Positions 26,034 to 59,206 of a stretch of 64,000 nt of DNA are shown piece by piece. Positions within the stretch are counted from its first letter, which is position 1. Every line of letters begins with the position of its first letter. The translations under genes were made by a program, and so were the position numbers. The DNA is from a virus (lineage: Duplodnaviria > Heunggongvirae > Uroviricota > Caudoviricetes), in the IMG/VR virus record IMGVR_UViG_3300031413_000001; one strand, given 5' to 3'. The notes under the pieces were generated by a model, which was not told the origin of the DNA, made no database searches, and was given only the letters and a program-made list of their open reading frames with translations.

Positions 26034-26301
26034 GCCATGCGTTCGTATGGGAGACCGCTGCACCGGCCATGGTGATGCTCCTCCACGTCCCAACGTGCAG
26101 GGAAGCCCCAACGTCTTCATCAATAGCAAGCCAGCACACCGTCAGGGTGATATGTGGGCCGTTCACAAAAACCATCCCAGCAAACTTGCCAGTGGCTCGA
26201 GCACCGTGTTCGTCAATGGCAAGGGCCAGGGCCGTGTGGGAGACCCAGTGTTGTGTGGATCCCGATGCGCCCAAGGTAGCCCAAATGTTTTTGCAGGATA
26301 G
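26026..26301 (+). CDS. PAAR-repeat protein (tail-spike tip, T4 gp5.4-like)
   Basis: 91 aa. Three PAAR-like repeats: GSPNVFINSKPAHRQGD, GSSTVFVNGKGQGRVGD, GSPNVFAG. Confidence 0.7.
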   Translation: MGKPCVRMGDRCTGHGDAPPRPNVQGSPNVFINSKPAHRQGDMWAVHKNHPSKLASGSSTVFVNGKGQGRVGDPVLCGSRCAQGSPNVFAG

Positions 26302-26303
26302 GC

Positions 26304-26332
26304 TTGACAACGAGTAAGCGGCCTACTAGATA
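26304..26332 (+). promoter_or_regulatory. sigma70-like promoter for the tmRNA gene
   Basis: TTGACA (26304-26309), a 17-nt spacer, then TAGATA (26327-26332). Predicted transcription start about 26339. Confidence 0.5.
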
Positions 26333-26339
26333 AGAGATG

Positions 26340-26750
26340 TTGTTGAAGACCAAGACTTAATAGCAAGTAGCGGACCCGGGGGCAGTACCCGGCAGATCCA
26401 CCATAACTGCGCGGCGCTGCCCTGGAAGCTAGCCGCTGCCCTCGAGTAGGGCGGTTATGATGGGTCTGAACCAGGATCGACGTGCGAGCGAACGGTTACG
26501 AGAAGATTGAGCTTCGGCTCATGAAGCGATGACAGGGTGGCTCCTTTAAAGGCCAAAGCATGTAAATGCAAACGACAACACCGTTGTCGAGGCACGTCTG
26601 GCCGCGTAAGCAGCCAGACGAGGTAGGATTGCTTCGGTAGTTCTATCGCGTCTCTTAAATCCCTAGGGGCTCAACTCCCTAGGTGAGGGTATGGCTCCAC
26701 CCGGTAACAGAACGGGCCACCTTTCCCATACAGATTGCATAATTACTAAG
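26340..26750 (+). ncRNA. ssrA: tmRNA (ssrA), apparently circularly permuted two-piece form
   Basis: Tag reading frame 26568-26609: GCA AAC GAC AAC ACC GTT GTC GAG GCA CGT CTG GCC GCG TAA = ANDNTVVEARLAA*. The 5' tRNA-like strand GGGUCUG (26462-26468) is followed by a GGAUCGACG box homologous to E. coli GGAUUCGACGG. The complementary 3' strand CAGAUCC-A-CCA (26393-26403) lies UPSTREAM and is preceded by a T-arm-like hairpin CCGGG-ggcagua-CCCGG (26376-26392). The predicted acceptor stem has a G3:U70 wobble pair, the AlaRS identity element. 3' boundary of the coding piece not determined. Confidence 0.6.
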
Positions 26751-26860
26751 AGACCAGTAATTATAGCTCGCCATATCTCGGTGTCGTAGGGAGCCTGAAA
26801 TACCGCGTGACAGTTAGCCAATTTGGTGCTAGCGGGGTCCGCGCAATACAGGAGTTCTCA

Positions 26861-28567
26861 ATGACACAGACAGATACCCGCCACCACATAACGGTGCAAG
26901 GGTTACTTGTCTGTGGCGTGGGGGATGAGGGTAACGTGGATAAAGCAATCAAATCTGATATTAATATCAAGATGCTTACCGACCTTGCGCCAACCATCAT
27001 TTGGACGCGGGACGCTTCGGGAAAGCTGACATATCTAAACAATTTTTGGTTTGAATTCACGGGCTGTGAATACACATTGATCGATGCTATCCTGTGGAAG
27101 GAGTCCATTCATCCCGATGACATGGATGACCTCCGGGAAAAGCTCAACGAAAGCATGGCGCGTGGCGAGCCATACGAGGCCGAGACGCGCATCAAGCGCC
27201 ATGACGGCGAGTACCGATGGTTTCGCATCGCAACCCGTGCCGTCAAGGATGAAGAAAACAATGTCATGCAGTGGCTGGGTGTTGCTTCCCCCATTCATGA
27301 ACTAAAAATCGCCCAAGAACGCGCCGACGTGGCGCATGATGAATTGGAGCGCATGGTAAAAGAACGCACCCGAGCTCTCGAGGACAGTCAACATCAGGTC
27401 TTGGAAGAGATCAATGCTCGACAGAAAATGGAAGACGCGCTTCGTCAGGCACAGAAGATGGAGTCAGTGGGTCAGCTGACTGGTGGAATTGCACACGATT
27501 TCAATAACATGCTGACGGTTATCATTGGCAACTTGGAGTTGCTGAAGATGAGCGCTCCCAATCTTGGTGACAATCCAGTTGCCAAGCGTATGGACAAGAA
27601 CGTCAACATGGCCATTGAGGCCGCGCTCAAGGCGGAAAAGCTGACGAGCCAGTTGCTGGCATTCTCCCGCAAGGCACGACTCCACCCCGAACGTCTTGAT
27701 GTCAACAAGGTCATCTTGGGCGTAAAGGAAATGGTCGACCGCGCAGTTGGTATCGCGATCACTTGTGAGATCGATCTACAAGACGATGTGTGGCTTTGCT
27801 TGAGCGACAAGACCCAGCTGGAAAGCGCGATCATCAATCTCTCGATCAATGCGCGGGACGCCATGCTGCCCAAAGGCGGTACACTTCGCATCTTCTCGCA
27901 GAACAAGACGATCGGCGATCTCCGCTACGTTAGTGTGGGTGTCAGGGATACTGGCACTGGCATTCCTCCAGAGATCTTGGAAAAGGTCTTTGAGCCATTC
28001 TTCACAACCAAAGATGTGGGCAAGGGAAGCGGTCTTGGACTGTCAATGGTTCACGGCTTCTGCCAGCAAAGCAATGGACGGGTGTTCATTGAAAGCAAGA
28101 TCGGTGAAGGCACCACTGTTGAGATGATCTTTCCCTACACGGCTGGGGAGAGCATTGACAAGGTCCAGGCCGACGAGGACTTCAACTACGACGAGAACAA
28201 GCGCAGCATCCTCGTGGTCGATGATGAGCCCGCGGTTCGTGAGCTGGCCTGTCAGCTACTGACTGATCTGGGCTACAATGTTGTCAGTGCCGAGAATGGA
28301 ACACAGGCAATTGAGTTCTTGGGCGATGACGAGATTCCCATCGATCTGCTCTTCACCGATGTGGTAATGCCCGGTGGTGTTGATGGCTTCCAGGTTGCCA
28401 AGTATGCACAAAGCGTCCGGCCAGGAATGCCCATTATCTTCACCACCGGTCACGCGGAAATCGCGCTCAACGAGTTGAAAAAGGATCTGAGCCAAAAGCT
28501 CAAGGTTATTGGAAAGCCCTACAGGCTCAATGAGTTAAGCCAGACGATTGCCCAAGAGCTTGCTTGA
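26861..28567 (+). CDS. hybrid sensor histidine kinase (PAS/PAC - HisKA - HATPase_c - receiver)
   Basis: AGGAG precedes the ATG at 26861. PAS/PAC domain ([23 protein letters not shown]...[17 protein letters not shown]). H-box [21 protein letters not shown]1, G2 boxes ([25 protein letters not shown]). C-terminal receiver domain ([12 protein letters not shown]...[11 protein letters not shown]...KPY). Confidence 0.85.
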
Positions 28568-29078: not shown

Positions 29079-29603
29079 ATGAGCCTCAATAACTACAATT
29101 CTGCAACAAACCTGATCAAAGCAATGGAAGATGGGGCTCAGTACGTTCGCGTAGTCGCCGGCGCCCGTGAGGGTTCGGTGGGCCGCGTAATGAGCGTCCG
29201 AAGTAAGTATTATAGCGCACACGATTATCATCTGGCCGTTAAGGGTCGCCGCAGCTTTTGGATGAAGGGCAGCGACTTGGAGCATCTCGAGAATTGGCGC
29301 GGTGGAACTTTCTACGCGCTGAATCGGGATACTCCAGTATTCAACGACCTGATGGGACGTCGTTTGGACGTGGGGCAAACGCTCCTGTTCCCGCGCGGAA
29401 CCGAAGGCGCTCGCGTCGATATGGTAATGGGCACGATCAAAAAGATCAGTGACAAAGGTGCCATCTACGCGAAGCTCTTCAAAAGTGGTCAGGGTAACGA
29501 TCTTGATGATTGCCTCGTACGGGTTGGGAAGCCCGGCAGCGCGATGATCATTGACAAAGGAACTGCTGACACGGTGATGATGGCCAAATTGGCCGCATTC
29601 TAA
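29079..29603 (+). CDS. hypothetical protein located between the kinase and regulator genes
   Basis: 174 aa. Two similar Gly/Arg/Val-rich half-domains (VRVVAGAREGSVGRVMSV / RVDMVMGTIKKISDKGAIYAKL). Preceded by an AT-rich 255-nt intergenic region. Confidence 0.5.
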   Translation: MSLNNYNSATNLIKAMEDGAQYVRVVAGAREGSVGRVMSVRSKYYSAHDYHLAVKGRRSFWMKGSDLEHLENWRGGTFYALNRDTPVFNDLMGRRLDVGQTLLFPRGTEGARVDMVMGTIKKISDKGAIYAKLFKSGQGNDLDDCLVRVGKPGSAMIIDKGTADTVMMAKLAAF

Positions 29604-29621
29604 GAGCCAAGGGGGCTATAA

Positions 29622-29969
29622 ATGTCGGGCAAAGTTCTAGTCGTTGAAGACGAACCCATGGTGCAAATCCTGCTAGAGGATATTTGCGCCCACGCAGACG
29701 TGGAAATCGTCGCGATGGTTGACACGGTCAAGGACGCACTCGCGGCCATTGATCGGGGCGGCTTCAAGGCTGTGATCCTCGACGTCAACCTCCACGGTGA
29801 GACCAGTGAGCCAATCGCCGCTGCACTACAGGGAAAGGGTTATCCCGTTCTCGTCTCCACTGGAAGTTTTCCCGGAGAGCTGCCCGCAGTGTTCAAGGAC
29901 TTCACGATTGTGCAGAAGCCCTTTAGCACCGTGGATATGGTACTCCTCTTGTCGCAGGTTGCTTTCTAA
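29622..29969 (+). CDS. single-domain response regulator (CheY-like receiver only)
   Basis: AAGGGGG precedes the ATG. Acidic pocket VVEDEP; phospho-acceptor Asp in AVILDVNLHG; conserved T/S (VSTG) and Lys (VQKPF). Confidence 0.8.
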   Translation: MSGKVLVVEDEPMVQILLEDICAHADVEIVAMVDTVKDALAAIDRGGFKAVILDVNLHGETSEPIAAALQGKGYPVLVSTGSFPGELPAVFKDFTIVQKPFSTVDMVLLLSQVAF

Positions 29970-29996
29970 CCTATTGCGCTAAGTTAATACGTTTCA

Positions 29997-30031
29997 TTAA
30001 GGCAAGTTAACAAAATAACTTGCAACCTTAC
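29997..30031. promoter_or_regulatory. imperfect palindrome (candidate operator)
   Basis: TTAAGGcAAGTT-aacaaaat-AACTTgcaaCCTTA. Lies between the regulator gene and the DUF4326-like gene. Confidence 0.3.
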
Positions 30032-30145
30032 TGCCCTTTCTATAGCTAGAGGGCAACGTGATGTTCCTTCCCCCAGGTACGGCACCACGTGGAGTCCAGG
30101 GGATGGGTCGCAAACGCCTCTCCTGGACTCCAATAAGTAGATCGT

Positions 30146-30445
30146 ATGATGAGCGATCTTTTTAACTGGCCTCAACCCGGAACCACAGTGGTAAACCTCA
30201 AGGAGGACCACTATGACGTGCGGATTGATCGCAAGACCAAGTGGGGCAATCCCTTTGTTGTCGGCCGTGATGGCACTCGTGAGGAGTGCATCCGTCAATT
30301 CTCCGATTGGATCGTGGACCAAAAGCACCTCATGGATGATCTCCATGAGATCAAGGGAAAGCGCCTGGGTTGCTGGTGCCATCCCCAACCCTGTCATGGA
30401 AATGTTCTTGCGAAACTGGCAGACGGCTATAAAAGAACAGACTAA
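30146..30445 (+). CDS. DUF4326-like small protein
   Basis: Motifs KWGNPF, REECIRQFSDWI and GKRLGCWCHPQPCHGNVL resemble the DUF4326 family that is frequent in phages. A 10-bp perfect inverted repeat (ggagtccagg ... cctggactcc, 30091-30131) lies just upstream. Confidence 0.5.
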   Translation: MMSDLFNWPQPGTTVVNLKEDHYDVRIDRKTKWGNPFVVGRDGTREECIRQFSDWIVDQKHLMDDLHEIKGKRLGCWCHPQPCHGNVLAKLADGYKRTD

Positions 30446-30492
30446 GTCGCTCATTGTTTGACAAACGGATCCAGCACCTTTATTAAGGTTGA

Positions 30493-31146
30493 ATGGACAA
30501 CATCACTGACTTCCTCGTAGCAGGACCCAATACCAGCTTTCTGGTAGCGGGTTGCGTCGTCGCAGCCGTTCTCATTCTCGAGATCGTTCTGCTAATCGTT
30601 GGTCACTCAACGATGATGATGAACGCAGATGTTGACATGACGCTCGACCTCGATGGAAATGGTATCCCCGATTATCTCGAGGGTCACGGTCATCTTGGCG
30701 ACTGGTTCAACCCCGGTCACATTCCCGTAACAATGTTCCTCGTGCTGTTCTGCGGACTACTAGCCCTCTTGGGTTACAGTGGTCAGTGGATCTATCTTGG
30801 ACAAGCGGGACAATTGGCTCCCGCCCTTCTCGCGGTTCCCATCACACTTGTTCCCACACTAGCATTCTCCCGCTGGTTTTCAGTTGGTCTGGCACGTATC
30901 ATCCCACAAGATGAAACAAACGCCATATCAGTTGAAAGTCTCGCGGGTGATGTTGGTGTGTTGACGACTGGGCCCGTACAGGGACGTGATGATTTTGGCA
31001 TGGCACGATTCGCCGACAAGTATGGGGTTGATCATGCCCTAGTAGTCGGTAGTGTTGATGACACGATTATTGAAACGGGCTCAAGCGTTGTGTTAGTTGG
31101 TCCACACCCTGAGAAGAGCATCGCTTTTATCATTCGCAAGATCTGA
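30493..31146 (+). CDS. NfeD/YqiJ-like membrane protein (partner of SPFH proteins)
   Basis: Multiple TM helices (VAGCVVAAVLILEIVLLIVG, VTMFLVLFCGLLALLG). C-terminal OB-fold-like segment GDVGVLTTGPVQGRDDFGMARF...GSSVVLVG. Immediately upstream of the flotillin gene, matching the E. coli yqiJ-yqiK arrangement. Confidence 0.55.
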   Translation: MDNITDFLVAGPNTSFLVAGCVVAAVLILEIVLLIVGHSTMMMNADVDMTLDLDGNGIPDYLEGHGHLGDWFNPGHIPVTMFLVLFCGLLALLGYSGQWIYLGQAGQLAPALLAVPITLVPTLAFSRWFSVGLARIIPQDETNAISVESLAGDVGVLTTGPVQGRDDFGMARFADKYGVDHALVVGSVDDTIIETGSSVVLVGPHPEKSIAFIIRKI

Positions 31147-31170
31147 TACCCAGATCAACAAGGAGACCCA

Positions 31171-32908
31171 AGTGGGCAATCTTCCCTTTATCGGACTAAT
31201 CGTGGGAGCGGTGATCGTAATCATCCTCCTGTTGGGCTTGCTGGCAGTCAAATTCTACCAGCGCGCAAGCAAGGAACAGGCTTTCGTTCGTACTGGTAAG
31301 GGCGGCCAGAAGGTCGTCAAGGACGGCGGCTCGGTTGTATGGCCGATCATTCAGGAAACCATCCCCATCAATATGCAGACGCTTCGTCTGACTGTTGAGC
31401 GGAAGGCCAAGGACTCGCTGATCACCAAGGATCGTCTCCGCGTTGACGTGAAGGCAGAGTTCTACGTTCGGGTTGCACCGGATGAGCAGAGCATTGCAGC
31501 CGCGGCACAGACGCTGGGCCGACGCACCCTTCAGCCGCAGCTTCTCGCAGAGCTGATTGAAGGCAAGTTCGTCGACGTCCTTCGCGCAGTGGCAGCAGGC
31601 ATGGACATGCAGGACCTTCACACTCAGCGGGCTGACTTCGTGAAGACGGTCAAGACCACTGCGGCAGAGGATCTCAAGGCCAACGGTCTGGAACTGGAGT
31701 CGGTGTCGCTGACCGGGTTGGACCAGACGTCCATCGAGCACTTCAACCCCAACAACGCCTTCGACGCAGAAGGTCTCGCCAAGCTGACCAACGTCACGGA
31801 GACGCGTCGCAAGGAGCGCAATGAAATCGAGCAGACCACGCGAGTGGCCATCGAGGAGCGCAACCTGTCGGCGACCAACCGAAGCCTGGAGCTCAAGCAG
31901 GAAGGCGAGTTCGCCCGCTTGCAGCAGGAGCAGAGCGTTGAAACGCGTTCGGCGGAGCAGGGTGCAAACCTGGCCAAGACCCGTGCTGATCGCCAGCGCG
32001 AGTCGGACATCGCAGCCATCGAGGCAGACCAGGCAACTGAAGCAGCACGGGTGAACAAGACCCGTACGATTCAGATTGCAGAAGCTGAAGCAGCTCGCGA
32101 TCTCGAACTGGCCGGCCAGGATCAGCGCATTCGCGTTGCTGCCAAGTCCCAGGAAGAGTCGGAAGCCCGTGCATCGGCCGATAAGGCACGTGCAATGGCC
32201 GTTGAGGCATCGGAAGCGGTCAAGACCGTGGAAGCAACTGCCCGAGCAGAGCGTGACCAGAAGGTTGCGGTCATTGCAGCAGAGACCGAGGCGCAGCGTG
32301 AGGCAGCTGGTATCAGCATCCGCGCGGAAGCTGAGTTCAAGGCAGCTGACAGCCAGGCAAAGGCTCGTGAGCGACTCATCGACGCCGATGCGAAGAAGTA
32401 CGAGGTTGAGGCCGAGGGTCAGCGCATGATCAACGAAGCAGCCAACACCATGTCGCCTGAGCAGGCAGCACTTCAGATCCGCTTGAAGCTTATCGAACAG
32501 CTTCCGCAGATCCTGGAGCAGATGGGCAAGCCCATCGAGAAGATTGACAGCTTCCGTGTCGTTCACATGAACGGCAGCATGGGCGGTGGTCACTCTTCGG
32601 GTTCGGTCGACGGTGAGACCACCGGCAACAGCGGCGGCAATCTGCCCACGCAGATGACCAACGCACTGCTGGACTATCGCTTGCAGGTTCCCATGGTCGA
32701 GGAAATGGCCAAGGAACTGGGCGTGGATATCTCGCGCGGCATGAACGGCATCGTGGACAGCATCGGCGGGGTCTCCAAGCCGGCCCCCAGTGCAACGCAG
32801 GCTACCAAGCCCGCCCCACGCGGTCACAAGACTGGTGATCCGGACATCATGACCGGGCTGGAGACGGAAAAGCTGCAGAAGCTTGCAGGCATTCACCCCG
32901 AGGGCTAA
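31171..32908 (+). CDS. flotillin-like SPFH/band-7 protein (YqiK-like) with long Ala/Glu/Arg coiled coil
   Basis: AAGGAG precedes the GTG at 31171. N-terminal TM helix, SPFH core (QTLRLTVERKAKDSLITKDRLRVDVKAEFYVRV). About 200 aa of EA/AR-rich coiled coil. Gly-rich C-terminal tail. Confidence 0.8.
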
Positions 32909-33030
32909 GTCCTCACTGATTGCTTGGGAGGGGCTGGACCAAAAGGTCTGGCCCCTTTTCTGTCTATTCTGTTGTAGACATGCGTGGAATTGGTGCTAGT
33001 AATGAGTCAGTGTTAAGCAAAAGGGATACG

Positions 33031-33690
33031 ATGAGCAGCAACATGGTCAGTAAGGTAGCAGCCGGCACCGGAGCGGCCTGCGTGTTCGTCGGCGGTCTCG
33101 CTGGCCTACCCTTTCCCTTCATTGGGGATCTTCTGGTCAGCACACCACTGGCGGCCGTGACGGGAATGGGCATCTGGTACTTTTGGCCAGGTCGTCGTCC
33201 AATCACCAAGGCAGAGGTCGAGCAGATCTTCGCCGATCAGGACAAGCTGAAGAACAGCAGCGGCGTTTCCAACAAGGAAGTCGTCGAGACCATCAAGTTG
33301 GTCTCCGACAAGCTGGATCGCATTCTGATGGAGGCCAGCAGCCTGAAGGGCCCCAATACGATCCGGCGCATCAAGCATCTGGATGCTGTTGGTCGGAAGA
33401 TCATCGAAGACTTCCGCCAGGATCCGTCGGACATCAAGCGCGCACAGAGCTGGATTCACAGTTATCTGGACCAGACGCTGGATTGCGTCAAGCAATACGC
33501 GCAGCTGAGCCGGAACGGTGCCCGCAGCATCGACGCGCAGCGGCAAATGGCGCAGTTCGACGACCTCTTGGACTTGCTGCATAGCAAGAGCCAGGAACTG
33601 CTCGACCATCTTCTCACCAACGACACCACCAACATGCAGGTAAACGTGGAAGTCTTCCGCGACATGCTCAACAACGAAGGGATCAAGTAA
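33031..33690 (+). CDS. XpaC-like membrane protein (5-bromo-4-chloroindolyl phosphate hydrolysis protein family, tentative)
   Basis: Two N-terminal TM helices (AAGTGAACVFVGGLAGLPFPFIGDLLV, LAAVTGMGIWYFW) followed by a helical soluble domain. Position immediately upstream of the TelA-like gene mirrors the Bacillus xpaC-yaaN pair. Start uncertain (33031 or 33040). Confidence 0.45.
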   Translation: MSSNMVSKVAAGTGAACVFVGGLAGLPFPFIGDLLVSTPLAAVTGMGIWYFWPGRRPITKAEVEQIFADQDKLKNSSGVSNKEVVETIKLVSDKLDRILMEASSLKGPNTIRRIKHLDAVGRKIIEDFRQDPSDIKRAQSWIHSYLDQTLDCVKQYAQLSRNGARSIDAQRQMAQFDDLLDLLHSKSQELLDHLLTNDTTNMQVNVEVFRDMLNNEGIK

Positions 33691-33692
33691 CC

Positions 33693-34856
33693 ATGGTAGA
33701 GACTGTTACGGCAACCGCAGTGGACACTTCCACGCTGATGCCAACCCCGGAACCGATCGGCAGCACGGCACTGGTAAGTCTCGCACCCGCGGGCACTGCA
33801 ATCCAGGTCAGCAAGGTGTCGCCGGAGCGCGCCAAGGAACTGGCGAAGAAGATCAACATTCGCGACACGCAGAGCATCATCGGCTTTGGCGTCGAAGCGC
33901 AGAAGAGCGTGTCGGCCGTTTCGGATCAGATGCTCGACGGCGTCCGCACCAAGGACACTGGCCCGGTCGGTGATTCGCTGAACCTGATGGTTCACGAGAT
34001 GCGCGGCCTGGACTTTGGTTCGCTGAGCCAGAAGCAGGGCTTCATCAGCAAGCTTCTCCGGAAGGCCAGCCGGGTCACGCTGTTCCTGGAGCAGTATGAG
34101 ACCGTGCAGAGCAAGATCAACAAGACGCAGGCCGTCCTGGAAGGTCACCGGGTCAACATGCTCCGCGGCGTGAAGATGCTCGATCTTCTCTACGTGAAGA
34201 CGCTGGAACTTCTCGGTTCGCTCGATGAGCAGGTCGCCGCAGTCCAGTACAAGCTGGAAGAAGTCAACACCATCGATATCCCGCAGGCCAATCAGAAGGC
34301 CCAGGAATCGCAGGACATGGCCGACACCCAGCTGGCCGCGGATCTGATTCAGGCGCGAGATGCACTGGAGCGCAAGCTGCATGATCTCCAGCTGACCCGT
34401 CAGATCACCATCCAGGCACTGCCCAGCATTCGCATCGTGCAGAGCAACGAGATTGGCCTCTCGGAGAAGATCCAGAGCCAGATCCTCAACGCACTGCCAC
34501 TGTGGAAGCGCAACATGGCACTGGCCATCGAAATGGCGAAGACGCAGAACGCCGCGAAGGCAACCAAGGCGGCTTCGGACTTCACCAACGAGCAGCTTCG
34601 TATGGGCAGCGACATGCTCCAGCAGAGCAATCTCGCAGTCCGCAAGGAAGTCGAGCGCGGCATCGTGGACGTGGACAGCGTCAAGTACGCCAACGACAAG
34701 CTGATCCAGACCATCGAGGACACGATCACCATCGCGCAGGAAGGCAAGAACATGCGCGCGGCGGCCGAGACCGAGTTGGCAGCGGCCGAGCAGCAGCTGA
34801 AGCAGACGCTGCTCAGCGCAGCGCAGCGCCAGGCAAACATGAAGGCAATCGCCTAA
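33693..34856 (+). CDS. TelA-like toxic-anion-resistance family protein
   Basis: 387 aa, all-helical. Regions GFGVEAQKSVSAVSDQMLDGVRTKDTGPVGDSLNLMVHEMRGLDF and QILNALPLWKRNMALAIEM are characteristic of TelA/YaaN/KlaA. Confidence 0.7.
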   Translation: MVETVTATAVDTSTLMPTPEPIGSTALVSLAPAGTAIQVSKVSPERAKELAKKINIRDTQSIIGFGVEAQKSVSAVSDQMLDGVRTKDTGPVGDSLNLMVHEMRGLDFGSLSQKQGFISKLLRKASRVTLFLEQYETVQSKINKTQAVLEGHRVNMLRGVKMLDLLYVKTLELLGSLDEQVAAVQYKLEEVNTIDIPQANQKAQESQDMADTQLAADLIQARDALERKLHDLQLTRQITIQALPSIRIVQSNEIGLSEKIQSQILNALPLWKRNMALAIEMAKTQNAAKATKAASDFTNEQLRMGSDMLQQSNLAVRKEVERGIVDVDSVKYANDKLIQTIEDTITIAQEGKNMRAAAETELAAAEQQLKQTLLSAAQRQANMKAIA

Positions 34857-34862
34857 CACTAG

Positions 34863-34892
34863 AAGGCCGGGGGAAACCCCGGCCTTTTCTTT
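34863..34892 (+). terminator. intrinsic terminator (GAAA tetraloop)
   Basis: aaggccgggg-gaaa-ccccggcctt followed by ttctttg. Confidence 0.8.
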
Positions 34893-34933
34893 GACTGGTT
34901 GACATCCAGGATAGCTTTCTGTATTGGTAGAAG

Positions 34934-35374
34934 ATGAACAAAAGCATCCTCACTGCACTTGCGGGACTTCTCGCGGTAACGACTCCGGCAGCTCTCGCAG
35001 CGCCGTTGAGCACCAACAGCTACGACTATGATGTCGTGGGCATCTACGATGGTGACACCTTCTACATCAAGATGGTCGGCCTTCCCCCAGAGCTCCAGCG
35101 TATTGGTGTCCGCGTCCGCGGCATCGACACTGCGGAAATGAAGGGAAAGTGTCAGAGCGAGAAGAGCACCGCTGCCGGCGCCAAGGCATTCACCACGCGA
35201 ATCCTCAAGCAAGCTGGCAACCGAGTAACGCTCCGGGGTCTCAAGTGGGACAAGTACGGCGGTCGTGTGGATGCTGATGTGTTCGTTGGCGGCGAGAGTC
35301 TCTCCAACATGATGATCACACGTGGATATGCCCGTCCCTACATGGGCGGCAAGCGAGCAGGATGGTGCGAATGA
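34934..35374 (+). CDS. secreted thermonuclease (staphylococcal nuclease/SNase fold)
   Basis: Signal peptide MNKSILTALAGLLAVTTPAALAAP. SNase motifs YDGDTFY, VRVRGIDTAE, KYGGRVDADVFVGG. Confidence 0.75.
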   Translation: MNKSILTALAGLLAVTTPAALAAPLSTNSYDYDVVGIYDGDTFYIKMVGLPPELQRIGVRVRGIDTAEMKGKCQSEKSTAAGAKAFTTRILKQAGNRVTLRGLKWDKYGGRVDADVFVGGESLSNMMITRGYARPYMGGKRAGWCE

Positions 35375-35934
35375 CCGAAGTTTTCGAGTTCTTCTACGGC
35401 GGCTACGCGAGTCAGTGGGCGCCCAGCGATTTCATCATCGGCGGCGTCAAGTATAACTGCGCCGAACAGTACATGATGGCCGAGAAGGCCCGCATGTTCA
35501 ACGACGATGACGCGCTGGAAATCATCATGGGGACCAACAACCCCAAGGTGCAAAAGGCCACCGGTCGGACGGTCAAGAACTTCGACAAGCACAAGTGGGA
35601 CCTGGAGCGAAAGCTGATCGTCTATCGTGCCAATCTCGCCAAGTTCACACAGAACTCCGAGTTCCTCCTGTGGCTCCAGGGAACCAAGGGCCGGACGCTG
35701 GTCGAGGCCAGCCCCTGGGACACCATCTGGGGCATTGGTCTGGGGGCAGAAGATCCTCGGGCACAGAGCCGGAACACCTGGCTGGGAACCAACGATCTAG
35801 GCGAGATCGTCACGCAGGTCCGTGAGGACATTGAGTGGATGCACTTCGCACAGGCCGGCACGGACAAGCTCAAGAGGGCCAAGTTCATCGGCGGCACGAT
35901 GGTTCCCATCGGTGATGACGGGCTGCCAAAGTAA
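35371..35934 (+). CDS. NADAR (YbiA-like, DUF1768) domain protein
   Basis: ATGA overlap with the nuclease stop. Motifs FFYGGYASQWAPS, YNCAEQYMMAEKARMFND, LVEASPWDTIWGIGLG. Confidence 0.7.
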   Translation: MTEVFEFFYGGYASQWAPSDFIIGGVKYNCAEQYMMAEKARMFNDDDALEIIMGTNNPKVQKATGRTVKNFDKHKWDLERKLIVYRANLAKFTQNSEFLLWLQGTKGRTLVEASPWDTIWGIGLGAEDPRAQSRNTWLGTNDLGEIVTQVREDIEWMHFAQAGTDKLKRAKFIGGTMVPIGDDGLPK

Positions 35935-35970
35935 TAGACAAGCGGGTAAGAGTTGTTGTAGGATAGTTCT

Positions 35971-36360
35971 ATGAAATCACTTACCCGCATGACTATGCTC
36001 GCCACCGTGATCGAACAGTTGGCCGAAGGCCTTACTGACGATGTTGCCATTGACCGTCTCTGCCGTGGAGTAATGTACATCCACGCAACTGATCCGGTGA
36101 TGCTTGAACGTCCAATGTTCAACAAGATCATGATCCCCATCTTCGCTCGTCTGATCTACGAAAGGCACGCCTTTGAAGTGCCCGTGGTCCGCTACGTGAA
36201 CGCACTCATCGACTTCATTGACGAAGCGGAATTCGAAATCGTCGATAACGAGCTCCGTCTTCAGAACGATCAGGCTCCAGGGATTGATCAGGAAGCGGAG
36301 GCTATGGAAAAGCTAGCCGACGACTTCAAGGCAGAATACGACTCCGAAGTTGAAGCGTAA
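35971..36360 (+). CDS. hypothetical protein
   Basis: 129-aa ORF with an acidic C-terminus. Confidence 0.5.
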   Translation: MKSLTRMTMLATVIEQLAEGLTDDVAIDRLCRGVMYIHATDPVMLERPMFNKIMIPIFARLIYERHAFEVPVVRYVNALIDFIDEAEFEIVDNELRLQNDQAPGIDQEAEAMEKLADDFKAEYDSEVEA

Positions 36361-36415
36361 CCAGCGTTTTTCCACTAAATAGGCAATACACCCAAACCTA
36401 TTTAGGGAGAGAATC

Positions 36416-36889
36416 ATGGGACGTCCAGTAAACAAGCAGAATTTCGGTCCCGATGGTATCGAAGTCCAGGCAAAGGTTGGCAGCGCGGCTGCTAAGGCAG
36501 GCTACATTGTGAAGCAGACCAGCACACATGAGTTCATCGTCAACGTTGGCGGCAAGGAATACACCTCGCGCATGGTCGAAAAGGCCAAGGGCGATCTCGC
36601 TGTTGGTGAGATGATGATCGCAGTCACGCTGGCTGATGGTTCGGTTGTTCCTGCAAAGAGCCTGAAGGGTCACGTCGTGACCGCAGGTGGCAAGGCTACC
36701 GTTTGGGCAACGCGCACCAACAACGCTGCTCCTTCGAAGGTTGCACGAGTTCAGGAAGAGGCCCCAGCGCCCACCCCAGCGCCCACCCCAACTCCAACGC
36801 CAACTCCTTCGACCCCAGCTGATCCGGCTCCAACAACTCCCGAGCCAACTCCAGCTGATCCAGACACGACCACCCCAACGGGTTCGTAA
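36416..36889 (+). CDS. hypothetical protein with Pro/Thr-rich C-terminal linker
   Basis: AGGGAGAG precedes the ATG. C-terminal APAPTPAPTPTPTPTPSTPADPAPTTPEPTPADPDTTTPTGS encoded by short nucleotide repeats. Followed by a terminator. Confidence 0.5.
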   Translation: MGRPVNKQNFGPDGIEVQAKVGSAAAKAGYIVKQTSTHEFIVNVGGKEYTSRMVEKAKGDLAVGEMMIAVTLADGSVVPAKSLKGHVVTAGGKATVWATRTNNAAPSKVARVQEEAPAPTPAPTPTPTPTPSTPADPAPTTPEPTPADPDTTTPTGS

Positions 36890-47454: not shown

Positions 47455-48807
47455 TTAAAACTTTACCTTCTTCAAGGCCTCTACTTCTTCGCGGTAGAGG
47501 TCTTTTCGTACCTGTGGATCCTTCAAGATCCTGTTGTACTCCTTGATGTTGGCCTTTAGTTCCTTGATCTTGTCTAGGACCTGCTGATATGCGTCCTTGG
47601 TCCAACGATGGGCCGGTAGGTTGACGATGCGGTCGATTCGCTTGTCATCCAGCTTGAGCTTGATCGTTACCTTGTTGACATCTTGATCCAGTTCCACTCG
47701 GCTCTTGATCGCACCCAAGCGCGCTGGCAGTTTGTCATCAAAGCATAGCTTGACACCTTCCCAGAAGCCCAGCTCGTAGCTGTCCTTGTCAACCTTGTTC
47801 TGATAGCGTGTTGCGTACCAGTTCAAACGCCATGCCACAAAGTCCTCGACAACCTTCTCGGCGTTCTCATACTGACGGATTGCCTTGCCGTTCCAGTCGA
47901 TGACCACGATGCGCTCGCTCTTCTTCTGGCGTAGCTTGAAGTAGTCAATGATCTTGGCCTGGTCCCAGCCCTTTACCGCACCACGTGCCATCTTGACCGT
48001 GATGTCGATGGTGTCTGTGGAGCGATCAGTGTAGGTGCTGATCTTGCCATCGTCCTCGAATGTGTTGAGTCGTTCCTTGAACTTTTCCAGTGTGAGCTCT
48101 GGCGGCAACTCGGTGATCTTAACCGTCGAAGTGTCGAGGACCTCAGCCTTGCCAGTGAACTCCCAGGAGTTTTCCTCAAGGTGCTGAACGCCAACGTTGT
48201 AGAGTTCGTATGCTGGTGGAATCCTCTTGAGCTTTTTACCGTCTAGGACGTCCAGCGTGGCCTGAATCAAGCTCTTAAAGCTGCGGGGCAAGATCTCCGT
48301 TGACCAGCCCACAGCGATGCCGGAAACACCGTTTAGAAGCACAGTGGGGATCAGGGGGAGAAAGTGCTGCGGCTCAATTGTGGAGCCGTCGTAGTTTTCC
48401 TTGGTTGGCACAATGTCCATGTCGGGGAACATCAGTTCCATTGCTGCCTTGCCACGCTTGACGTATGTGTAGCGAGGAGCACCAATACCATCAACGGGAG
48501 CCACGCGAGTACCAAACGATCCAATGCCATCTAGAAGTGGCACGTTGTTGACATAAGGAGCGGCCAGCATGGAGATCGAACCGGCCGCCGAGGCGTCGCC
48601 GTGAAGATACAATCCGCTGCTGATCATCTCACCTGCCAGCGAGACTGTCTTGATCTTTTCACTCTTGCCCTTGACAAGCCAGAGTGCTTTGCGTTGTGCG
48701 TCCTTTAGACCGTCGGCAACCTTGGGGATTGCGCGGCTTTCGCAAACGTAGATGGAATATTCTCGACTGGTGTCTAGGATATAATTGGATGAGCTATTTT
48801 GGGTCAT
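47455..48807 (-). CDS. DNA topoisomerase II, GyrA/ParC-N-terminal-like subunit (T4 gp52-like)
   Basis: 450 aa. YSIYVCESRAIPKVADGLKDAQRKALW; active-site Tyr region PRYTYVK; tower/winged-helix segments. Confidence 0.85.
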   Translation of the reverse strand: MTQNSSSNYILDTSREYSIYVCESRAIPKVADGLKDAQRKALWLVKGKSEKIKTVSLAGEMISSGLYLHGDASAAGSISMLAAPYVNNVPLLDGIGSFGTRVAPVDGIGAPRYTYVKRGKAAMELMFPDMDIVPTKENYDGSTIEPQHFLPLIPTVLLNGVSGIAVGWSTEILPRSFKSLIQATLDVLDGKKLKRIPPAYELYNVGVQHLEENSWEFTGKAEVLDTSTVKITELPPELTLEKFKERLNTFEDDGKISTYTDRSTDTIDITVKMARGAVKGWDQAKIIDYFKLRQKKSERIVVIDWNGKAIRQYENAEKVVEDFVAWRLNWYATRYQNKVDKDSYELGFWEGVKLCFDDKLPARLGAIKSRVELDQDVNKVTIKLKLDDKRIDRIVNLPAHRWTKDAYQQVLDKIKELKANIKEYNRILKDPQVRKDLYREEVEALKKVKF

Positions 48808-53180: not shown

Positions 53181-53436
53181 CCCACGTCAACTTGAAGATC
53201 ATCTGTTCCACTTTGTTCTTACAGTGGATATTGATGCGGGTCTTGTACCCACCATCAGCAGCTTGAGTACTTGGATTTCTGTCATAGGACGTTGCGATTT
53301 TGTGGCTTGGCATCATTTTATCGAGCCAAGCCACAAAGCTATCATAGTCGTCCGTCGTCACTGCGCCAAACCAAATATCTTCGAAAAGAGGGTGTGGTCC
53401 ACAGTGACGCATATCAACCCTCACAGGCCAATCCAC
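53167..53436 (-). CDS. FKLxWGG family small protein (array copy 16)
   Basis: C-terminus HCKNKVEQMIFKLTWGGSV. Its start overlaps the end of the gp39-like gene. Confidence 0.55.
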   Translation of the reverse strand: MDWPVRVDMRHCGPHPLFEDIWFGAVTTDDYDSFVAWLDKMMPSHKIATSYDRNPSTQAADGGYKTRINIHCKNKVEQMIFKLTWGGSV

Positions 53437-57952: not shown

Positions 57953-59206
57953 ATGAGTGAAAAGAAGAATCTGAGCTGCTCTTTTTGTGGTAAGAAGCAA
58001 GAAGCCGTTCAGAAGCTGATTGCTGGTCCGGATGTCTTTATCTGTAACGATTGTGTTCAGCTCTGTGCCGATATCCTAAAGGAAGACGACAACACGGCAA
58101 CCAAGATGCCGGTAAAGGATGGGGCCATTCCCAGCCCTCGTACCATTCGTGAGTTTCTCGATCAGTATGTGATCGGCCAGGAAGCTGCCAAGATGGTCAT
58201 GAGCGTGGCGGTCCACAACCATTACAAGCGGTTGGCCAATCCAGTGGTTGATGATGTTGAGCTCGAGAAGTCCAACATTCTCCTACTGGGCCCAACGGGC
58301 AGCGGTAAGACACTTATGGCAAAGAGCATTGCCAAGCTACTGGATGTTCCCTTTACTATCGCAGACGCCACCAGCCTAACTGAGGCGGGCTATGTGGGTG
58401 ACGATGTTGAAACCATCATCACTCGATTGCTGCAGGTTTGCGACAACGATGTGTCCAAGGCGGAACGCGGCATCATCTACCTCGACGAGGTGGACAAGAA
58501 GGCCAAGAAGAGTGAAGGCTCCAGCGTTAGCAGGGACGTATCGGGCGAAGGCGTTCAGCAGGCACTCCTGAAGATCATCGAAGGCTCAGAAGTTCGTGTT
58601 CCCGTACAGGGCAACCGAAAGCATCCCAACAGCGAGATGGTGGTTGTAAATACCAAGAACATCCTGTTTATCGTTGGTGGTGCATTCGTTGGTCTTGATG
58701 AGATCATTGGAAAGCGCCTCAACAAGGGCAAGGGCGGAATTGGCTTTGGTGCATCTGTTAAGTCGGACATTGACAAGGATGTATCCAGTGCCCTCTTGAG
58801 CCAGGTTGAGCCAGAGGATCTTACCAAGTATGGTCTGATTCCTGAAATGGTTGGCCGTCTCCCAGTTATCACACACTTGGAGGAGTTGGACCAGGACCAG
58901 TTGGTCAAGGTTCTCACTGAGCCCAAGAACGCGCTTATCAAGCAGTTTGAGAAGATCTTCCAGCTGGAAGATGTCAAGCTGGACTTTGACAAGGAAGCCC
59001 TTCGTGCCATTGCCAAGGACGCTATCACTCGGAAGACGGGTGCTCGTGGTCTGCGGTCCGTTATTGAAAAGCGGTTGATCCGCGTTCAATATGACCTCCC
59101 TGACCTTAAGGAAGCTGGAGCAACAGCTATCCGCGTGGGCAAGGATGTCATTGAAGGAAAGAGCGAGCCACTGGTGGTCTATGACCCCAAGGCAGCAAAC
59201 GAGTAA
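57953..59206 (+). CDS. clpX: ATP-dependent Clp protease ATP-binding subunit ClpX
   Basis: Zinc-binding CSFCGK...CNDC. Walker [16 protein letters not shown] pore loop. Walker [10 protein letters not shown]. Sensor/IGF region RVPVQG...; C-terminal SRGLR. Confidence 0.9.

What the first reader, a model, noticed from the sequence alone, without database searches (positions are those of the whole stretch)
30493..34856. Four-gene host-like membrane module: YqiJ/NfeD-like, flotillin (YqiK-like), XpaC-like, TelA-like
A membrane OB-fold protein is followed by a 579-aa SPFH/flotillin protein with a roughly 200-aa Ala/Glu/Arg coiled coil. This reproduces the E. coli yqiJ-yqiK pair in both sizes and order. 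It is immediately followed by a two-TM protein and a TelA/YaaN-family protein, the xpaC-yaaN arrangement. The whole block ends at a strong terminator, so the four genes appear to be one operon. Such membrane-microdomain and toxic-anion-resistance modules are normally chromosomal or plasmid stress loci. In a viral context they could serve membrane remodelling, superinfection exclusion or tolerance of envelope stress during lysis timing, which is inference.
Basis: partly seen in the sequence, partly recalled or inferred. Interest (0 to 1): 0.6.

Follow-up and report, generated by a model that had tools for sequence, protein, structure and literature searches.

The report
Jumbo-phage flotillin plus TelA membrane genes
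A roughly 464-kb bacteriophage, probably of Alphaproteobacteria, carries two adjacent gene pairs that bacteria use to organise and protect their inner membrane (YqiJ + flotillin, XpaC + TelA). The block is conserved across a clade of giant phages, so the phage probably uses it to manage the host membrane during infection.

Summary
All four family calls are confirmed by Pfam: YqiJ_N 5e-15, Band_7 4e-19 plus Flot 6e-36, XpaC/Halogen_Hydrol 3e-20, TelA 4e-89.

The DNA is phage DNA, not host flank. The window is part of a 463,863-bp metagenomic contig. The block DUF4326–YqiJ–flotillin–XpaC–TelA–SNase–NADAR recurs in at least ten related 435–481-kb jumbo-phage contigs. The four-gene core also occurs in the cultured Sinorhizobium phage Phosso.

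The phage flotillins form one clade, at most 52% identical to the nearest bacterial ones (Sphingomonadales).

The "single operon" reading is probably wrong. A strong hairpin plus T-run, followed by a sigma70-like promoter box, lies between flotillin and xpaC in all eight phage genomes compared. The block is therefore probably two bicistronic units.

The two pairs are separable. XpaC–TelA occurs alone in seven other viral contigs, and YqiJ–flotillin alone in one viral contig and on 326 plasmids.

A distant TelA subtype sits next to YqiJ–flotillin in 9 of 80 Sphingomonadales-dominated loci, in a different gene order. This argues for a functional link that arose independently.

The function is inferred: maintenance or organisation of the host membrane during a long infection.

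Verdict: a new variant of known kinds, of moderate interest.

The parts
30458..30486 (+). Sigma70-like promoter candidate for unit 1. TTGACA (30458-30463), a 17-nt spacer, then TATTAA (30481-30486), ending 6 nt before the yqiJ ATG. The transcript could be leaderless or have a very short leader.
   Evidence: Read from the sequence. Related phages L015 and L018 carry the same layout, a TTGACA followed 18 nt later by a -10-like box ending 6-7 nt before the start; L008 and L017 have a degenerate ATGACx box in that position. The consensus scan did not report it. Inference only.
30493..31146 (+). YqiJ-like (NfeD2-type) inner-membrane protein, 217 aa. Three TM segments plus a C-terminal probable OB-fold.
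   Evidence: Pfam YqiJ_N 5.1e-15. YqiJ_OB 0.0064, below the cutoff. TM segments. Orthologues carry YqiJ_OB hits. A YqiJ gene lies directly upstream of flotillin in 77-78 of 80 bacterial loci.
31172..32908 (+). Flotillin (SPFH2, YqiK-like), 578 aa, GTG start after an AAGGAG at 31160-31165. N-terminal TM, SPFH domain, a roughly 210-aa Ala/Glu/Arg-rich coiled coil, and a Flot C-terminal domain.
   Evidence: Band_7 4e-19 and Flot 6.1e-36. A profile of alignment A1 hits human Flotillin-1 structures 9l3g and 9bq2, E 6e-7. Composition and TM. 8000 homologues scored; phage relatives range from 99% down to about 50% identity.
32926..32968 (+). Intrinsic-terminator-like hairpin (15-bp stem, AAAA loop) followed by TTTTCTGTCTATT. 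Probable end of the yqiJ-flotillin unit.
   Evidence: -26.3 kcal/mol, z -4.05. A hairpin of -20 to -30 kcal/mol plus a T-run lies at the same place in all 8 related phage genomes. The stem sequences differ.
32975..33003 (+). Promoter-like element for unit 2. TAGACA (the hexamer GTAGAC is invariant in 7 of 7 aligned phages), a 16-17-nt spacer, then TAGTAAT.
   Evidence: Alignment A2: GTAGAC is invariant and is followed 16 nt later by TATAAG, TATAAC, TATAAA, TATACA or TAATAT in the relatives. GTAGAC is rare in the window, 12 sites against about 31 expected. The promoter function is inferred.
33031..33690 (+). XpaC-family protein (PF10112), 219 aa. Two N-terminal TM helices plus a cytoplasmic helical bundle. 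An AAGGGA RBS lies 4 nt upstream.
   Evidence: Pfam 3.4e-20. The start is fixed by orthologue alignment A5 and by gene calls in L005 and L007. AF2 model: pLDDT 70 overall, 80-92 in the C-terminal bundle. A profile search finds 3628 family representatives at E<=1e-3.
33693..34856 (+). TelA/YaaN-family protein, 387 aa, soluble and all-helical. It starts 2 nt after the xpaC stop.
   Evidence: Pfam TelA 4.3e-89 and phrog_5890 7e-47. No TM segment. 40% identity to the TelA of a bacterial xpaC-telA pair. AF2 model made of long helical hairpins, pLDDT 66.
34861..34894 (+). Intrinsic-terminator-like hairpin (GGCCGGGG-GAAA-CCCCGGCC core) plus TTTTCTTT. End of the xpaC-telA unit.
   Evidence: -24.1 kcal/mol, z -4.86. 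Hairpins follow TelA in the related phages too, but in L008 and L017 that hairpin overlaps the start of the next ORF and in Phosso it lies under a convergent gene. The scan missed it; the likely reason is that the stem extends into the T-run.

Best explanation
**What it is (shown).** A conserved block of a clade of roughly 435-481-kb jumbo phages, probably infecting Alphaproteobacteria. It consists of two adjacent two-gene units.
- Unit 1 encodes a 3-TM YqiJ/NfeD-type protein and a flotillin.
- Unit 2 encodes a 2-TM XpaC protein and a soluble YaaN-type TelA.
- Each unit is bracketed by a sigma70-like promoter box and a hairpin terminator.

**How it most likely works (inferred).**
- The units are read by the host RNA polymerase during infection.
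- The flotillin inserts through its N-terminal helix. It oligomerises through its long Ala/Glu-rich coiled coil into membrane-attached cages on the cytoplasmic face of the host inner membrane, as solved eukaryotic flotillin complexes do. YqiJ is its dedicated membrane partner.
- XpaC tethers or regulates TelA at the same membrane.
- In bacteria both pairs are tied to tolerance of membrane-damaging agents.
- The phage therefore most likely brings its own copies to keep the host inner membrane organised, sealed and energised through a long, resource-heavy infection. This would cover phage-inflicted envelope stress or membrane-targeting host responses.

The identity and phage ownership of the block are near certain (above 0.9). 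The confidence given below is for the function.
For: **Families**: supported.

**Phage ownership and age**
- The parent contig is 463,863 bp.
- The same gene order, with the same non-membrane neighbours (DUF4326 upstream, SNase and NADAR downstream), recurs in L008/L009, L015-L018, L104, L123, L126 and L102; the four-gene core also recurs in L124, and the JGI 19.8-kb contig has the block as far as SNase. The four-gene core is also in the cultured phage Phosso.
- Protein identity falls to 25-50% across the clade while order is kept. That implies long retention under selection.
- In an NJ tree the phage flotillins form one clade of 70 leaves with no named bacterial sequence inside.

**Two units**.

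**Separability of the pairs**
- XpaC-TelA occurs alone in 7 viral contigs.
- YqiJ-flotillin occurs alone in a 376-kb viral contig and on 326 plasmids, 266 of them conjugative.

**Functional link between the pairs**
- A distant TelA subtype plus a 2-TM protein precede YqiJ-flotillin in 9 of 80 bacterial loci.
- That TelA is not significantly similar to the phage TelA (E 0.35), so the association looks independent.

**Published roles of the families**
- E. faecium xpaC/telA affect daptomycin binding and phospholipid microdomains (PMC6811118).
- Disruption of Listeria telA increases nisin susceptibility (cited in PMC12791056).
- Flotillin plus YqiJ/YuaF operons associate with PspA membrane-stress systems (PMC11237479).
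- SPFH proteins form operons with NfeD partners (PMC2636767).
- Flotillin forms membrane-attached cages (PMC11260169, PMC13000311).

None of the four proteins hits a known defence-system model.
Against: - There are no expression, localisation or phenotype data for any phage copy.
- The biochemical activities of TelA, XpaC and YqiJ are unknown even in bacteria.
- E. coli yqiK deletion mutants show no growth defect under the conditions tested (unpublished data cited in PMC2636767), so "membrane maintenance" is a loose concept.
- The promoter assignments are consensus matches supported only by conservation.
- Physical coupling of the two pairs is not shown.
- The structure models are of medium confidence (pLDDT 66 and 70) and gave no specific functional homologue.
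Confidence: 0.45

Rival explanations
1. Superinfection exclusion or inter-phage competition. The membrane proteins alter the inner membrane of the infected cell so that DNA injection by a second phage fails.
For: - All components act at, or are tethered to, the inner membrane.
- Tellurite-resistance gene clusters have been linked to phage inhibition on IncHI2 plasmids (Whelan et al. 1995, cited in 10.1101/2021.03.02.433402).
- YqiJ-flotillin pairs are common on conjugative plasmids next to transfer and pilus genes, a setting where entry exclusion matters.
Against: - No PADLOC defence model matches any of the four proteins.
- No known exclusion protein family is present.
- The inferred lifestyle of these jumbo phages is lytic, which gives a short window in which exclusion would pay. 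This is inference.
- The published phenotypes of the families concern envelope stress, not phage entry.
Confidence: 0.15
2. Control of membrane permeabilisation or lysis timing. TelA is itself membrane-active, XpaC restrains it, and the flotillin cage confines the activity. Together they set when the host membrane is breached.
For: - In E. faecium the xpaC deletion phenotype appears only when telA is intact (PMC6811118). That fits XpaC restraining TelA.
- From my own knowledge, not checked here: the TelA homologue KlaA belongs to the host-lethal kilA locus of plasmid RK2.
Against: - Model confidence is only pLDDT 66.
- No holin, endolysin or spanin is adjacent. The nearest cell-wall hydrolase gene lies about 9 kb away on the other strand.
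- TelA has no hydrophobic segment.
Confidence: 0.12
3. A scaffold for a phage process at the membrane. Flotillin microdomains would concentrate host or phage membrane proteins, such as proteases, secretion or respiratory complexes, or assembly and replication machinery. TelA/XpaC would be unrelated neighbours.
For: - Bacterial and eukaryotic SPFH proteins act as scaffolds or cages for other membrane proteins (PMC11260169, PMC12005517, PMC2636767).
- The two pairs are separate transcription units and occur apart in other elements.
- TelA identity patterns are discordant with the other three genes. In L123 TelA is 82% identical but flotillin 61%; in L015 TelA is 57% but flotillin 75%.
Against: - The adjacency of the two pairs is kept in every member of the clade examined, down to 25-50% identity.
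- A TelA-type gene has independently joined YqiJ-flotillin in Sphingomonadales. This argues that the pairs work together.
- No client protein can be named from the sequence.
Confidence: 0.15
4. Passenger DNA. The block would be a recent capture from the host, an assembly chimera, or host flank with no role for the phage.
For: - GC3 of flotillin (0.71), XpaC (0.77) and TelA (0.82) is above the window mean of 0.64.
- All four families are typical of chromosomes and plasmids.
Against: - The block sits in identical phage synteny in independent assemblies from several samples and in a cultured phage.
- No bacterial homologue exceeds about 52% identity for flotillin or about 48% for TelA.
- The phage sequences form their own clade.
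- Other clearly phage-context genes in the window have equally high GC3 (NADAR 0.82, the ORF at 39946 0.83), and YqiJ is low at 0.51.
Confidence: 0.03

Closest known systems
Sinorhizobium phage Phosso (PV764938.1), genes 491-494
   Same: Same four genes in the same order and on the same strand in a cultured 469-kb phage. YqiJ_N and YqiJ_OB both pass the Pfam cutoffs; XpaC scores 1.3e-22. There is a terminator-like hairpin and a GTAGAC box between flotillin and xpaC.
   Different: Identity is only 27-49%. The deposited record names just two of the four genes (SPFH domain protein, toxic anion resistance protein). The flanking DUF4326, SNase and NADAR genes are not found next to it. No paper on this phage was found in the library.
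E. coli yqiJ-yqiK and B. subtilis yuaF-floT (NfeD2-SPFH2 operons)
   Same: The order (membrane OB-fold protein first, then flotillin), the domain architecture and the sizes agree. The pairing is nearly universal among the nearest bacterial homologues (77-78 of 80 loci; PMC2636767).
   Different: The phage protein fails the FloT equivalog model, 67 bits against a 700-bit cutoff. It is at most 52% identical to bacterial YqiK-like proteins. It is encoded by a virus and is followed by xpaC-telA, which none of the 80 bacterial loci have downstream.
Bacillota xpaC-telA (yaaN) pair (E. faecium xpaC/telA, Listeria lmo1966-lmo1967)
   Same: XpaC lies immediately upstream of TelA with a 2-nt gap. The same junction is seen in a bacterial chromosome whose TelA is 40% identical. 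These pairs are linked to daptomycin and nisin tolerance and to phospholipid microdomains (PMC6811118, PMC12791056).
   Different: The phage XpaC has no bacterial relative detectable by pairwise or word-based search; only profiles link them. The phage pair is joined to a flotillin pair, and the predicted host is Gram-negative.
Sphingomonadales TelA - 2-TM protein - YqiJ - flotillin clusters (e.g. Novosphingobium clariflavum)
   Same: These also combine a TelA-family protein, a roughly 220-aa protein with two N-terminal TM segments, YqiJ and flotillin in one co-oriented cluster. They are found in 9 of 80 loci plus L012/L013.
   Different: The gene order is reversed, with the TelA pair first. 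That TelA belongs to another subfamily (E 0.35 against the phage TelA). Homology of its 2-TM partner to XpaC is not shown: hhalign probability 4-9%, although the alignment is co-linear.
TelA genes of other jumbo phages (Pectobacterium phage CBB gp340, GAP32, Staphylococcus S6/PALS_2; phrog_5890)
   Same: TelA is an established jumbo-phage cargo gene. The window phage shares a virion protein with this group.
   Different: Identity is 23-26%, and no flotillin-family gene is annotated nearby in the one neighbourhood examined, phage CBB. YqiJ, XpaC and flotillin have no PHROG family at all.

Membership tests
Flotillin / SPFH2 (YqiK, FloT type) | SPFH (Band_7) domain above the Pfam cutoff | tested here: met
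   PF01145 4e-19, 69.8 bits against a 23.6-bit cutoff.
Flotillin / SPFH2 (YqiK, FloT type) | C-terminal flotillin domain following an Ala/Glu-rich coiled coil | tested here: met
   PF15975 6.1e-36 at residues 392-519. Residues 220-430 are 62% A/E/R/Q/K. The A1 profile hits Flotillin-1 structures.
Flotillin / SPFH2 (YqiK, FloT type) | N-terminal membrane anchor | tested here: met
   One hydrophobic segment at residues 6-24.
Flotillin / SPFH2 (YqiK, FloT type) | Operon partner of NfeD2/YqiJ type directly upstream | tested here: met
   A YqiJ_N protein ends 25 nt upstream.
Flotillin / SPFH2 (YqiK, FloT type) | Assembly into large membrane-attached oligomers or foci | not testable with these tools
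   Needs microscopy, cryo-EM or multimer modelling.
FloT equivalog (NCBIfam NF058507) | Whole-protein score at or above the curated cutoff | tested here: not met
   67.2 bits against a 700-bit cutoff. It is a flotillin but not a FloT orthologue.
YqiJ / NfeD2 | YqiJ_N membrane domain with about 3 TM segments | tested here: met
   PF21001 5.1e-15. Three hydrophobic segments.
YqiJ / NfeD2 | C-terminal OB-fold (YqiJ_OB) | tested here: inconclusive
   The window protein scores 16.9 bits against 25.4. Orthologues carry hits: Phosso 27.5 bits, L102 and the JGI contig. No structure model could be made.
XpaC (PF10112, Halogen_Hydrol) | Pfam match above the cutoff over the full domain | tested here: met
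   3.4e-20, 73.3 bits against 29.8, profile positions 18-190 of 191. All 40 close homologues carry PF10112.
XpaC (PF10112, Halogen_Hydrol) | Two N-terminal TM helices, and a gene immediately upstream of telA | tested here: met
   AF2 helices at 3-23 and 30-50, though modelled at low confidence (pLDDT below 50 there). Weak hydropathy peaks. 2-nt gap to telA.
XpaC (PF10112, Halogen_Hydrol) | Hydrolysis of 5-bromo-4-chloroindolyl phosphate | not testable with these tools
   Needs a biochemical or plate assay.
TelA / YaaN / KlaA (PF05816) | Full-length Pfam match above the cutoff | tested here: met
   4.3e-89, 299 bits, profile positions 2-331 of 332. phrog_5890.
TelA / YaaN / KlaA (PF05816) | Confers resistance to tellurite or envelope-acting antibiotics | not testable with these tools
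   Needs an expression phenotype.
Ter stress-response cluster (terZABCDEF) | TerB, TerC or TerD genes next to TelA | tested here: not met
   No such Pfam family appears among the called genes across the 21-kb locus around TelA (about 10 kb on each side).
Known anti-phage defence systems (PADLOC-DB) | Any of the four proteins matches a defence model | tested here: not met
   No hit for any of the four proteins.
   A conserved hairpin plus T-run and a conserved promoter-like box lie between genes 2 and 3. Read-through is not excluded, because there are no transcript data.

The most novel reading that the evidence does not exclude
YqiJ-flotillin and XpaC-TelA are the two halves of one four-component membrane machine. 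The flotillin cage would enclose a patch of inner membrane in which XpaC holds TelA, itself a ClyA-like helical protein able to act on the bilayer. Jumbo phages would then have adopted this machine to control host-membrane permeability or repair. The independent pairing of a different TelA subtype with YqiJ-flotillin in Sphingomonadales would be a second invention of the same machine.
Probability: 0.12. Interest if true: 0.8.

Novelty: new variant of a known kind. Interest (0 to 1): 0.5.

Why it matters
Bacterial flotillins, YqiJ/NfeD partners, XpaC and TelA are widespread. After decades their mechanisms are still poorly understood.

- **A virus depends on them.** A clade of giant phages has kept all four, in fixed order, while the proteins diverged to 25-50% identity. 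That says they do something a virus needs during infection.
- **An experimental handle exists.** One member, Sinorhizobium phage Phosso, is cultured. Deleting four phage genes and watching the host membrane during infection could give a cleaner phenotype than bacterial knock-outs have.
- **Flotillin and TelA look linked.** TelA-type genes neighbour YqiJ-flotillin both in these phages and in Sphingomonadales, with a different gene order and TelA subtype. This is comparative-genomic evidence that flotillin and TelA systems cooperate. I did not find this link described in the literature I could search.
- **Annotation gap.** Flotillin, YqiJ and XpaC have no PHROG family, so phage annotation pipelines built on PHROGs will leave them unnamed.

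Tried and rejected
1. **Nucleotide similarity to known phages.** Megablast of 18 kb found nothing. Protein-level searches were needed.
2. **Defence-system models.** No PADLOC hit for the four proteins.
3. **Solved structures by sequence.** Nothing for TelA, XpaC or YqiJ. Single-sequence flotillin also found nothing; only the profile worked.
4. **Fold searches.**
   - The XpaC model matched only generic or designed helical bundles.
5. **Is the Sphingomonad 2-TM protein "X" an XpaC?** Pfam gave no hit. hhalign gave 4% and 9% probability, and hmmsearch at most 8.5 bits. Homology is not shown.
6. **Is GTAGAC a general promoter motif of this phage?** No. The window has only 12 sites against about 31 expected, and most lie inside genes. 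It is specific to this locus.
7. **Compositional evidence for recent transfer.** GC3 is high for three of the genes but equally high for other phage genes. Rejected as evidence.
8. **Rfam.** No known RNA family in 29500-36500.
9. **Context of the Sphingomonas sanxanigenens flotillin P0070.** Not on record.
10. **Literature.** No paper on phage Phosso. No paper treats a phage-encoded flotillin beyond passing mentions of SPFH genes in phage genomes.

Full report
**1. Observation**

- Gene 1 matches YqiJ_N at 5.1e-15. Its YqiJ_OB match is sub-threshold (16.9 bits against 25.4).
- Gene 2 matches Band_7 at 4e-19 and Flot at 6.1e-36.
- Gene 3 matches Halogen_Hydrol (the XpaC family) at 3.4e-20.
- Gene 4 matches TelA at 4.3e-89.

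PHROGs knows only the TelA (phrog_5890). It has no family for the other three. NCBIfam shows that the flotillin is not a FloT orthologue: 67 bits against a cutoff of 700.

Reading the junctions refines the gene starts.
- The flotillin starts at the GTG at 31172, after an AAGGAG, giving 578 aa.
- XpaC starts at the ATG at 33031, giving 219 aa. The TTG at 32920 lies inside a hairpin. The orthologue alignment and gene calls in sister contigs support 33031.

Hydropathy gives three TM segments in YqiJ, one N-terminal segment in flotillin, weak N-terminal hydrophobicity in XpaC and none in TelA. Flotillin residues 220-430 are 62% Ala/Glu/Arg/Gln/Lys.

**2. Whose DNA it is**

The exact TelA protein is found on ten contigs. 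The longest is 463,863 bp, and the gene neighbourhood is identical in independent samples.
- Elsewhere in the window there are PHROG hits to a virion structural protein, ribonucleotide reductase and topoisomerase II.
- Pfam finds DnaB, topoisomerase IV subunit A and ClpX.
- Megablast against known phages finds nothing.
- At protein level the 469-kb cultured Sinorhizobium phage Phosso carries a flotillin (49.8% identity), a TelA (46%) and a virion protein (38%). Agrobacterium phage Atu_ph07 and Rak2-like phages are more distant relatives.

In Phosso, genes 491-494 are the same four families in the same order. The same order was found in L008/L009 (465 and 389 kb), L015-L018, L104 (481 kb), L123, L124 (480 kb), L126, L102 and a JGI 19.8-kb contig. 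Most of these also have DUF4326 upstream and SNase plus NADAR downstream (the JGI contig has no NADAR directly after SNase).

Identity to the window proteins falls to 27-51% (YqiJ), 49-75% (flotillin), 25-58% (XpaC) and 39-82% (TelA) while the order is kept.

An alphaproteobacterial-type permuted tmRNA lies at 26300-26721 (Rfam RF01849, 90 bits). The nearest bacterial flotillins are from Sphingomonadales. Both point to an alphaproteobacterial host.

**3. Origin**

The flotillin search returned phage-context proteins from 99% down to about 50% identity. Named bacterial proteins (Sphingomonas, Novosphingobium and others) appear only at 52% or below. Eighty bacterial loci retrieved with a profile are all 45-52% identical.

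In a midpoint-rooted NJ tree, the sequences I could tie to phage contigs share an ancestor whose 70 descendants include no named bacterial protein. There are two caveats. Part of the phage labelling rests on matching contig lengths, and the tree is crude.

The phage TelA is of the YaaN type.
- It is 40% identical to the TelA of a bacterial xpaC-telA pair that has the same tight junction.
- It is 37-39% identical to Enterococcus proteins.

The phage XpaC has only phage-clade relatives by word-based search. A profile of it finds 3628 family representatives in an exhaustive search.

GC3 is raised in three of the four genes. It is equally raised in other genes of the window, so it says nothing about recent transfer.

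TelA identities are discordant with the other genes. In L123 TelA is 82% identical and flotillin 61%; in L015 TelA is 57% and flotillin 75%. This indicates gene-level mosaicism within the clade.

**4. Transcription units**

Between the flotillin stop and the xpaC start lie 122 nt. They contain a 15-bp GC-rich hairpin followed by TTTTCTGTCTATT. The hairpin folds at -26.3 kcal/mol, z -4.05.

All eight phage genomes compared have a hairpin of -20 to -30 kcal/mol plus a T-run at this position. The stem sequences differ. About 10-20 nt downstream, every one of the seven aligned genomes has the invariant hexamer GTAGAC, that is TAGACA, one mismatch from TTGACA. A TATAAT-like box follows 16 nt later. 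GTAGAC is otherwise rare in the window.

After TelA there is a second hairpin, -24.1 kcal/mol, z -4.86, followed by TTTTCTTT.

Upstream of yqiJ, TTGACA-N17-TATTAA ends 6 nt before the ATG. L015 and L018 carry a clear TTGACA in the same position; L008 and L017 have only a degenerate box there. The yqiJ message may therefore be leaderless.

I conclude that the block is most likely two bicistronic units read by the host sigma70 polymerase. Read-through at the first terminator cannot be excluded without transcript data.

**5. The pairs apart and together**

- In IMG/VR, 8 of 11 flotillin loci carry all four genes. One 376-kb viral contig has YqiJ-flotillin only.
- Of 14 TelA loci, 6 are this clade, 7 have XpaC-TelA without flotillin, and 1 has TelA alone.
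- In the phage genome collection only Phosso has a full-length flotillin homologue. TelA alone is common in jumbo phages such as CBB.
- YqiJ-flotillin pairs occur on 326 plasmids, 266 of them conjugative, for example beside the pil genes of pECOED.
- Among the 80 bacterial loci, YqiJ precedes flotillin in 77-78. None has an XpaC-family gene.
- Nine of the 80, plus Novosphingobium clariflavum, have TelA followed by a 2-TM protein upstream of YqiJ-flotillin.
- That TelA is a different subfamily: E 0.35 against the phage TelA by BLASTP, about 1e-10 against the YaaN-type profile.
- Homology of its 2-TM partner to XpaC is not shown.

A TelA-type protein with a small 2-TM partner has thus become linked to YqiJ-flotillin at least twice, in different gene orders. 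I take this as the best available evidence that the two pairs cooperate.

**6. Structures**

A profile of the flotillins hits human Flotillin-1 cryo-EM entries. Those complexes are large membrane-attached cages (PMC11260169, PMC13000311).

The XpaC model (pLDDT 70) shows two TM helices and a confident helical bundle with no informative match.

**7. Mechanism**

Known from the literature:
- SPFH proteins pair and co-evolve with NfeD partners (PMC2636767).
- Flotillin plus YqiJ/YuaF operons associate with PspA membrane-stress systems (PMC11237479).
- In E. faecium, xpaC deletion lowers the daptomycin MIC 8-fold and redistributes phospholipid microdomains, but only if telA is intact (PMC6811118).
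- Disruption of Listeria telA raises nisin and tellurite susceptibility (Collins 2010, cited in PMC12791056).

My preferred reading, at 0.45, is inferred. The phage expresses its own flotillin cage with YqiJ and a membrane-tethered TelA/XpaC pair. Together they keep the host inner membrane organised, sealed and energised during a long jumbo-phage infection.

The rivals are superinfection exclusion (0.15), control of permeabilisation or lysis timing (0.12), a scaffold for another phage process with TelA/XpaC unrelated (0.15), and passenger DNA (0.03, contradicted by the data). None of the four proteins matches a defence model.

**8. Novelty and score**

All four families are known. TelA in jumbo phages is known, and SPFH genes have been noted in passing in phage genomes. 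The Phosso record names two of the four genes.

Four things I did not find described:
- the conserved four-gene block as a hallmark of a jumbo-phage clade;
- its two-unit architecture;
- the phage-specific flotillin clade;
- the apparently independent TelA-flotillin linkage in Sphingomonadales.

I rate it a new variant of known kinds, interest 0.5.

Noticed in passing
window 26300-26721 (+): A phage-encoded transfer-messenger RNA of the permuted alphaproteobacterial type. Rfam RF01849 scores 90.2 bits, E 8e-25. ARAGORN gives the tag peptide ANDNTVVEARLAA. It supports an alphaproteobacterial host and is notable cargo for a phage.
   Followed up: partly
window 26807-28567 (+) and 29622-29969 (+): A hybrid sensor histidine kinase (PAS-HisKA-HATPase-receiver, 586 aa as listed) and a stand-alone receiver protein (115 aa) lie just upstream of the membrane block. 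Both are kept in relative L104. L008/L009 keep the receiver but not the kinase. A phage-borne two-component system next to envelope-stress-type genes is suggestive, but I did not test a link.
   Followed up: partly
window 8033-9703 (-): A 556-aa protein built of several PAS domains (PAS_9 1e-38, four stretches) with no recognisable output domain. It is a second sensory protein in this phage.
   Followed up: no
window 30146-30445 (+), 34934-35374 (+), 35362-35934 (+): DUF4326 (5e-28) lies immediately upstream. A staphylococcal-nuclease-like protein and a NADAR-domain protein (2.8e-44; also hits the PADLOC candidate PDC-M42C at 5.7e-38) lie immediately downstream. These genes flank the block in most relatives. 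Whether they relate to it is unknown.
   Followed up: partly
loci L102 7729-8097 and the JGI 19.8-kb contig 5256-5642: In the most divergent members of the clade, an extra 122-128-aa ORF with no Pfam hit is inserted between xpaC and telA.
   Followed up: no
loci L012, L032, L054, L058, L062, L075, L078, L088, L092: Sphingomonadales chromosomes carry a co-oriented cluster of TelA (a distant subtype), a roughly 220-aa 2-TM protein, YqiJ and flotillin. I have not seen this bacterial association described. The 2-TM protein aligns co-linearly with XpaC, but not significantly.
   Followed up: partly
loci L111 (3643-4917) and L117 (3645-4871): In two other jumbo-size viral contigs (333 and 342 kb), the ORF upstream of TelA is about 410-425 aa (stop-to-stop frame) and matches the XpaC profile only weakly (1e-6, 9e-6). 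It may be an extended or fused XpaC variant.
   Followed up: no
window 57953-59206 (+), 47455-48807 (-), 53421-55289 (-): A ClpX-like unfoldase with its zinc finger, a topoisomerase IV/gyrase A-type subunit and a topoisomerase II large subunit are encoded in the same window. These are typical jumbo-phage host-independence genes.
   Followed up: no
loci L123/L126 versus L015/L018: TelA identity to the window (80-82% versus 56-57%) runs opposite to flotillin identity (59-61% versus 70-75%). This indicates recombination that swaps individual genes within the block among related phages.
   Followed up: partly
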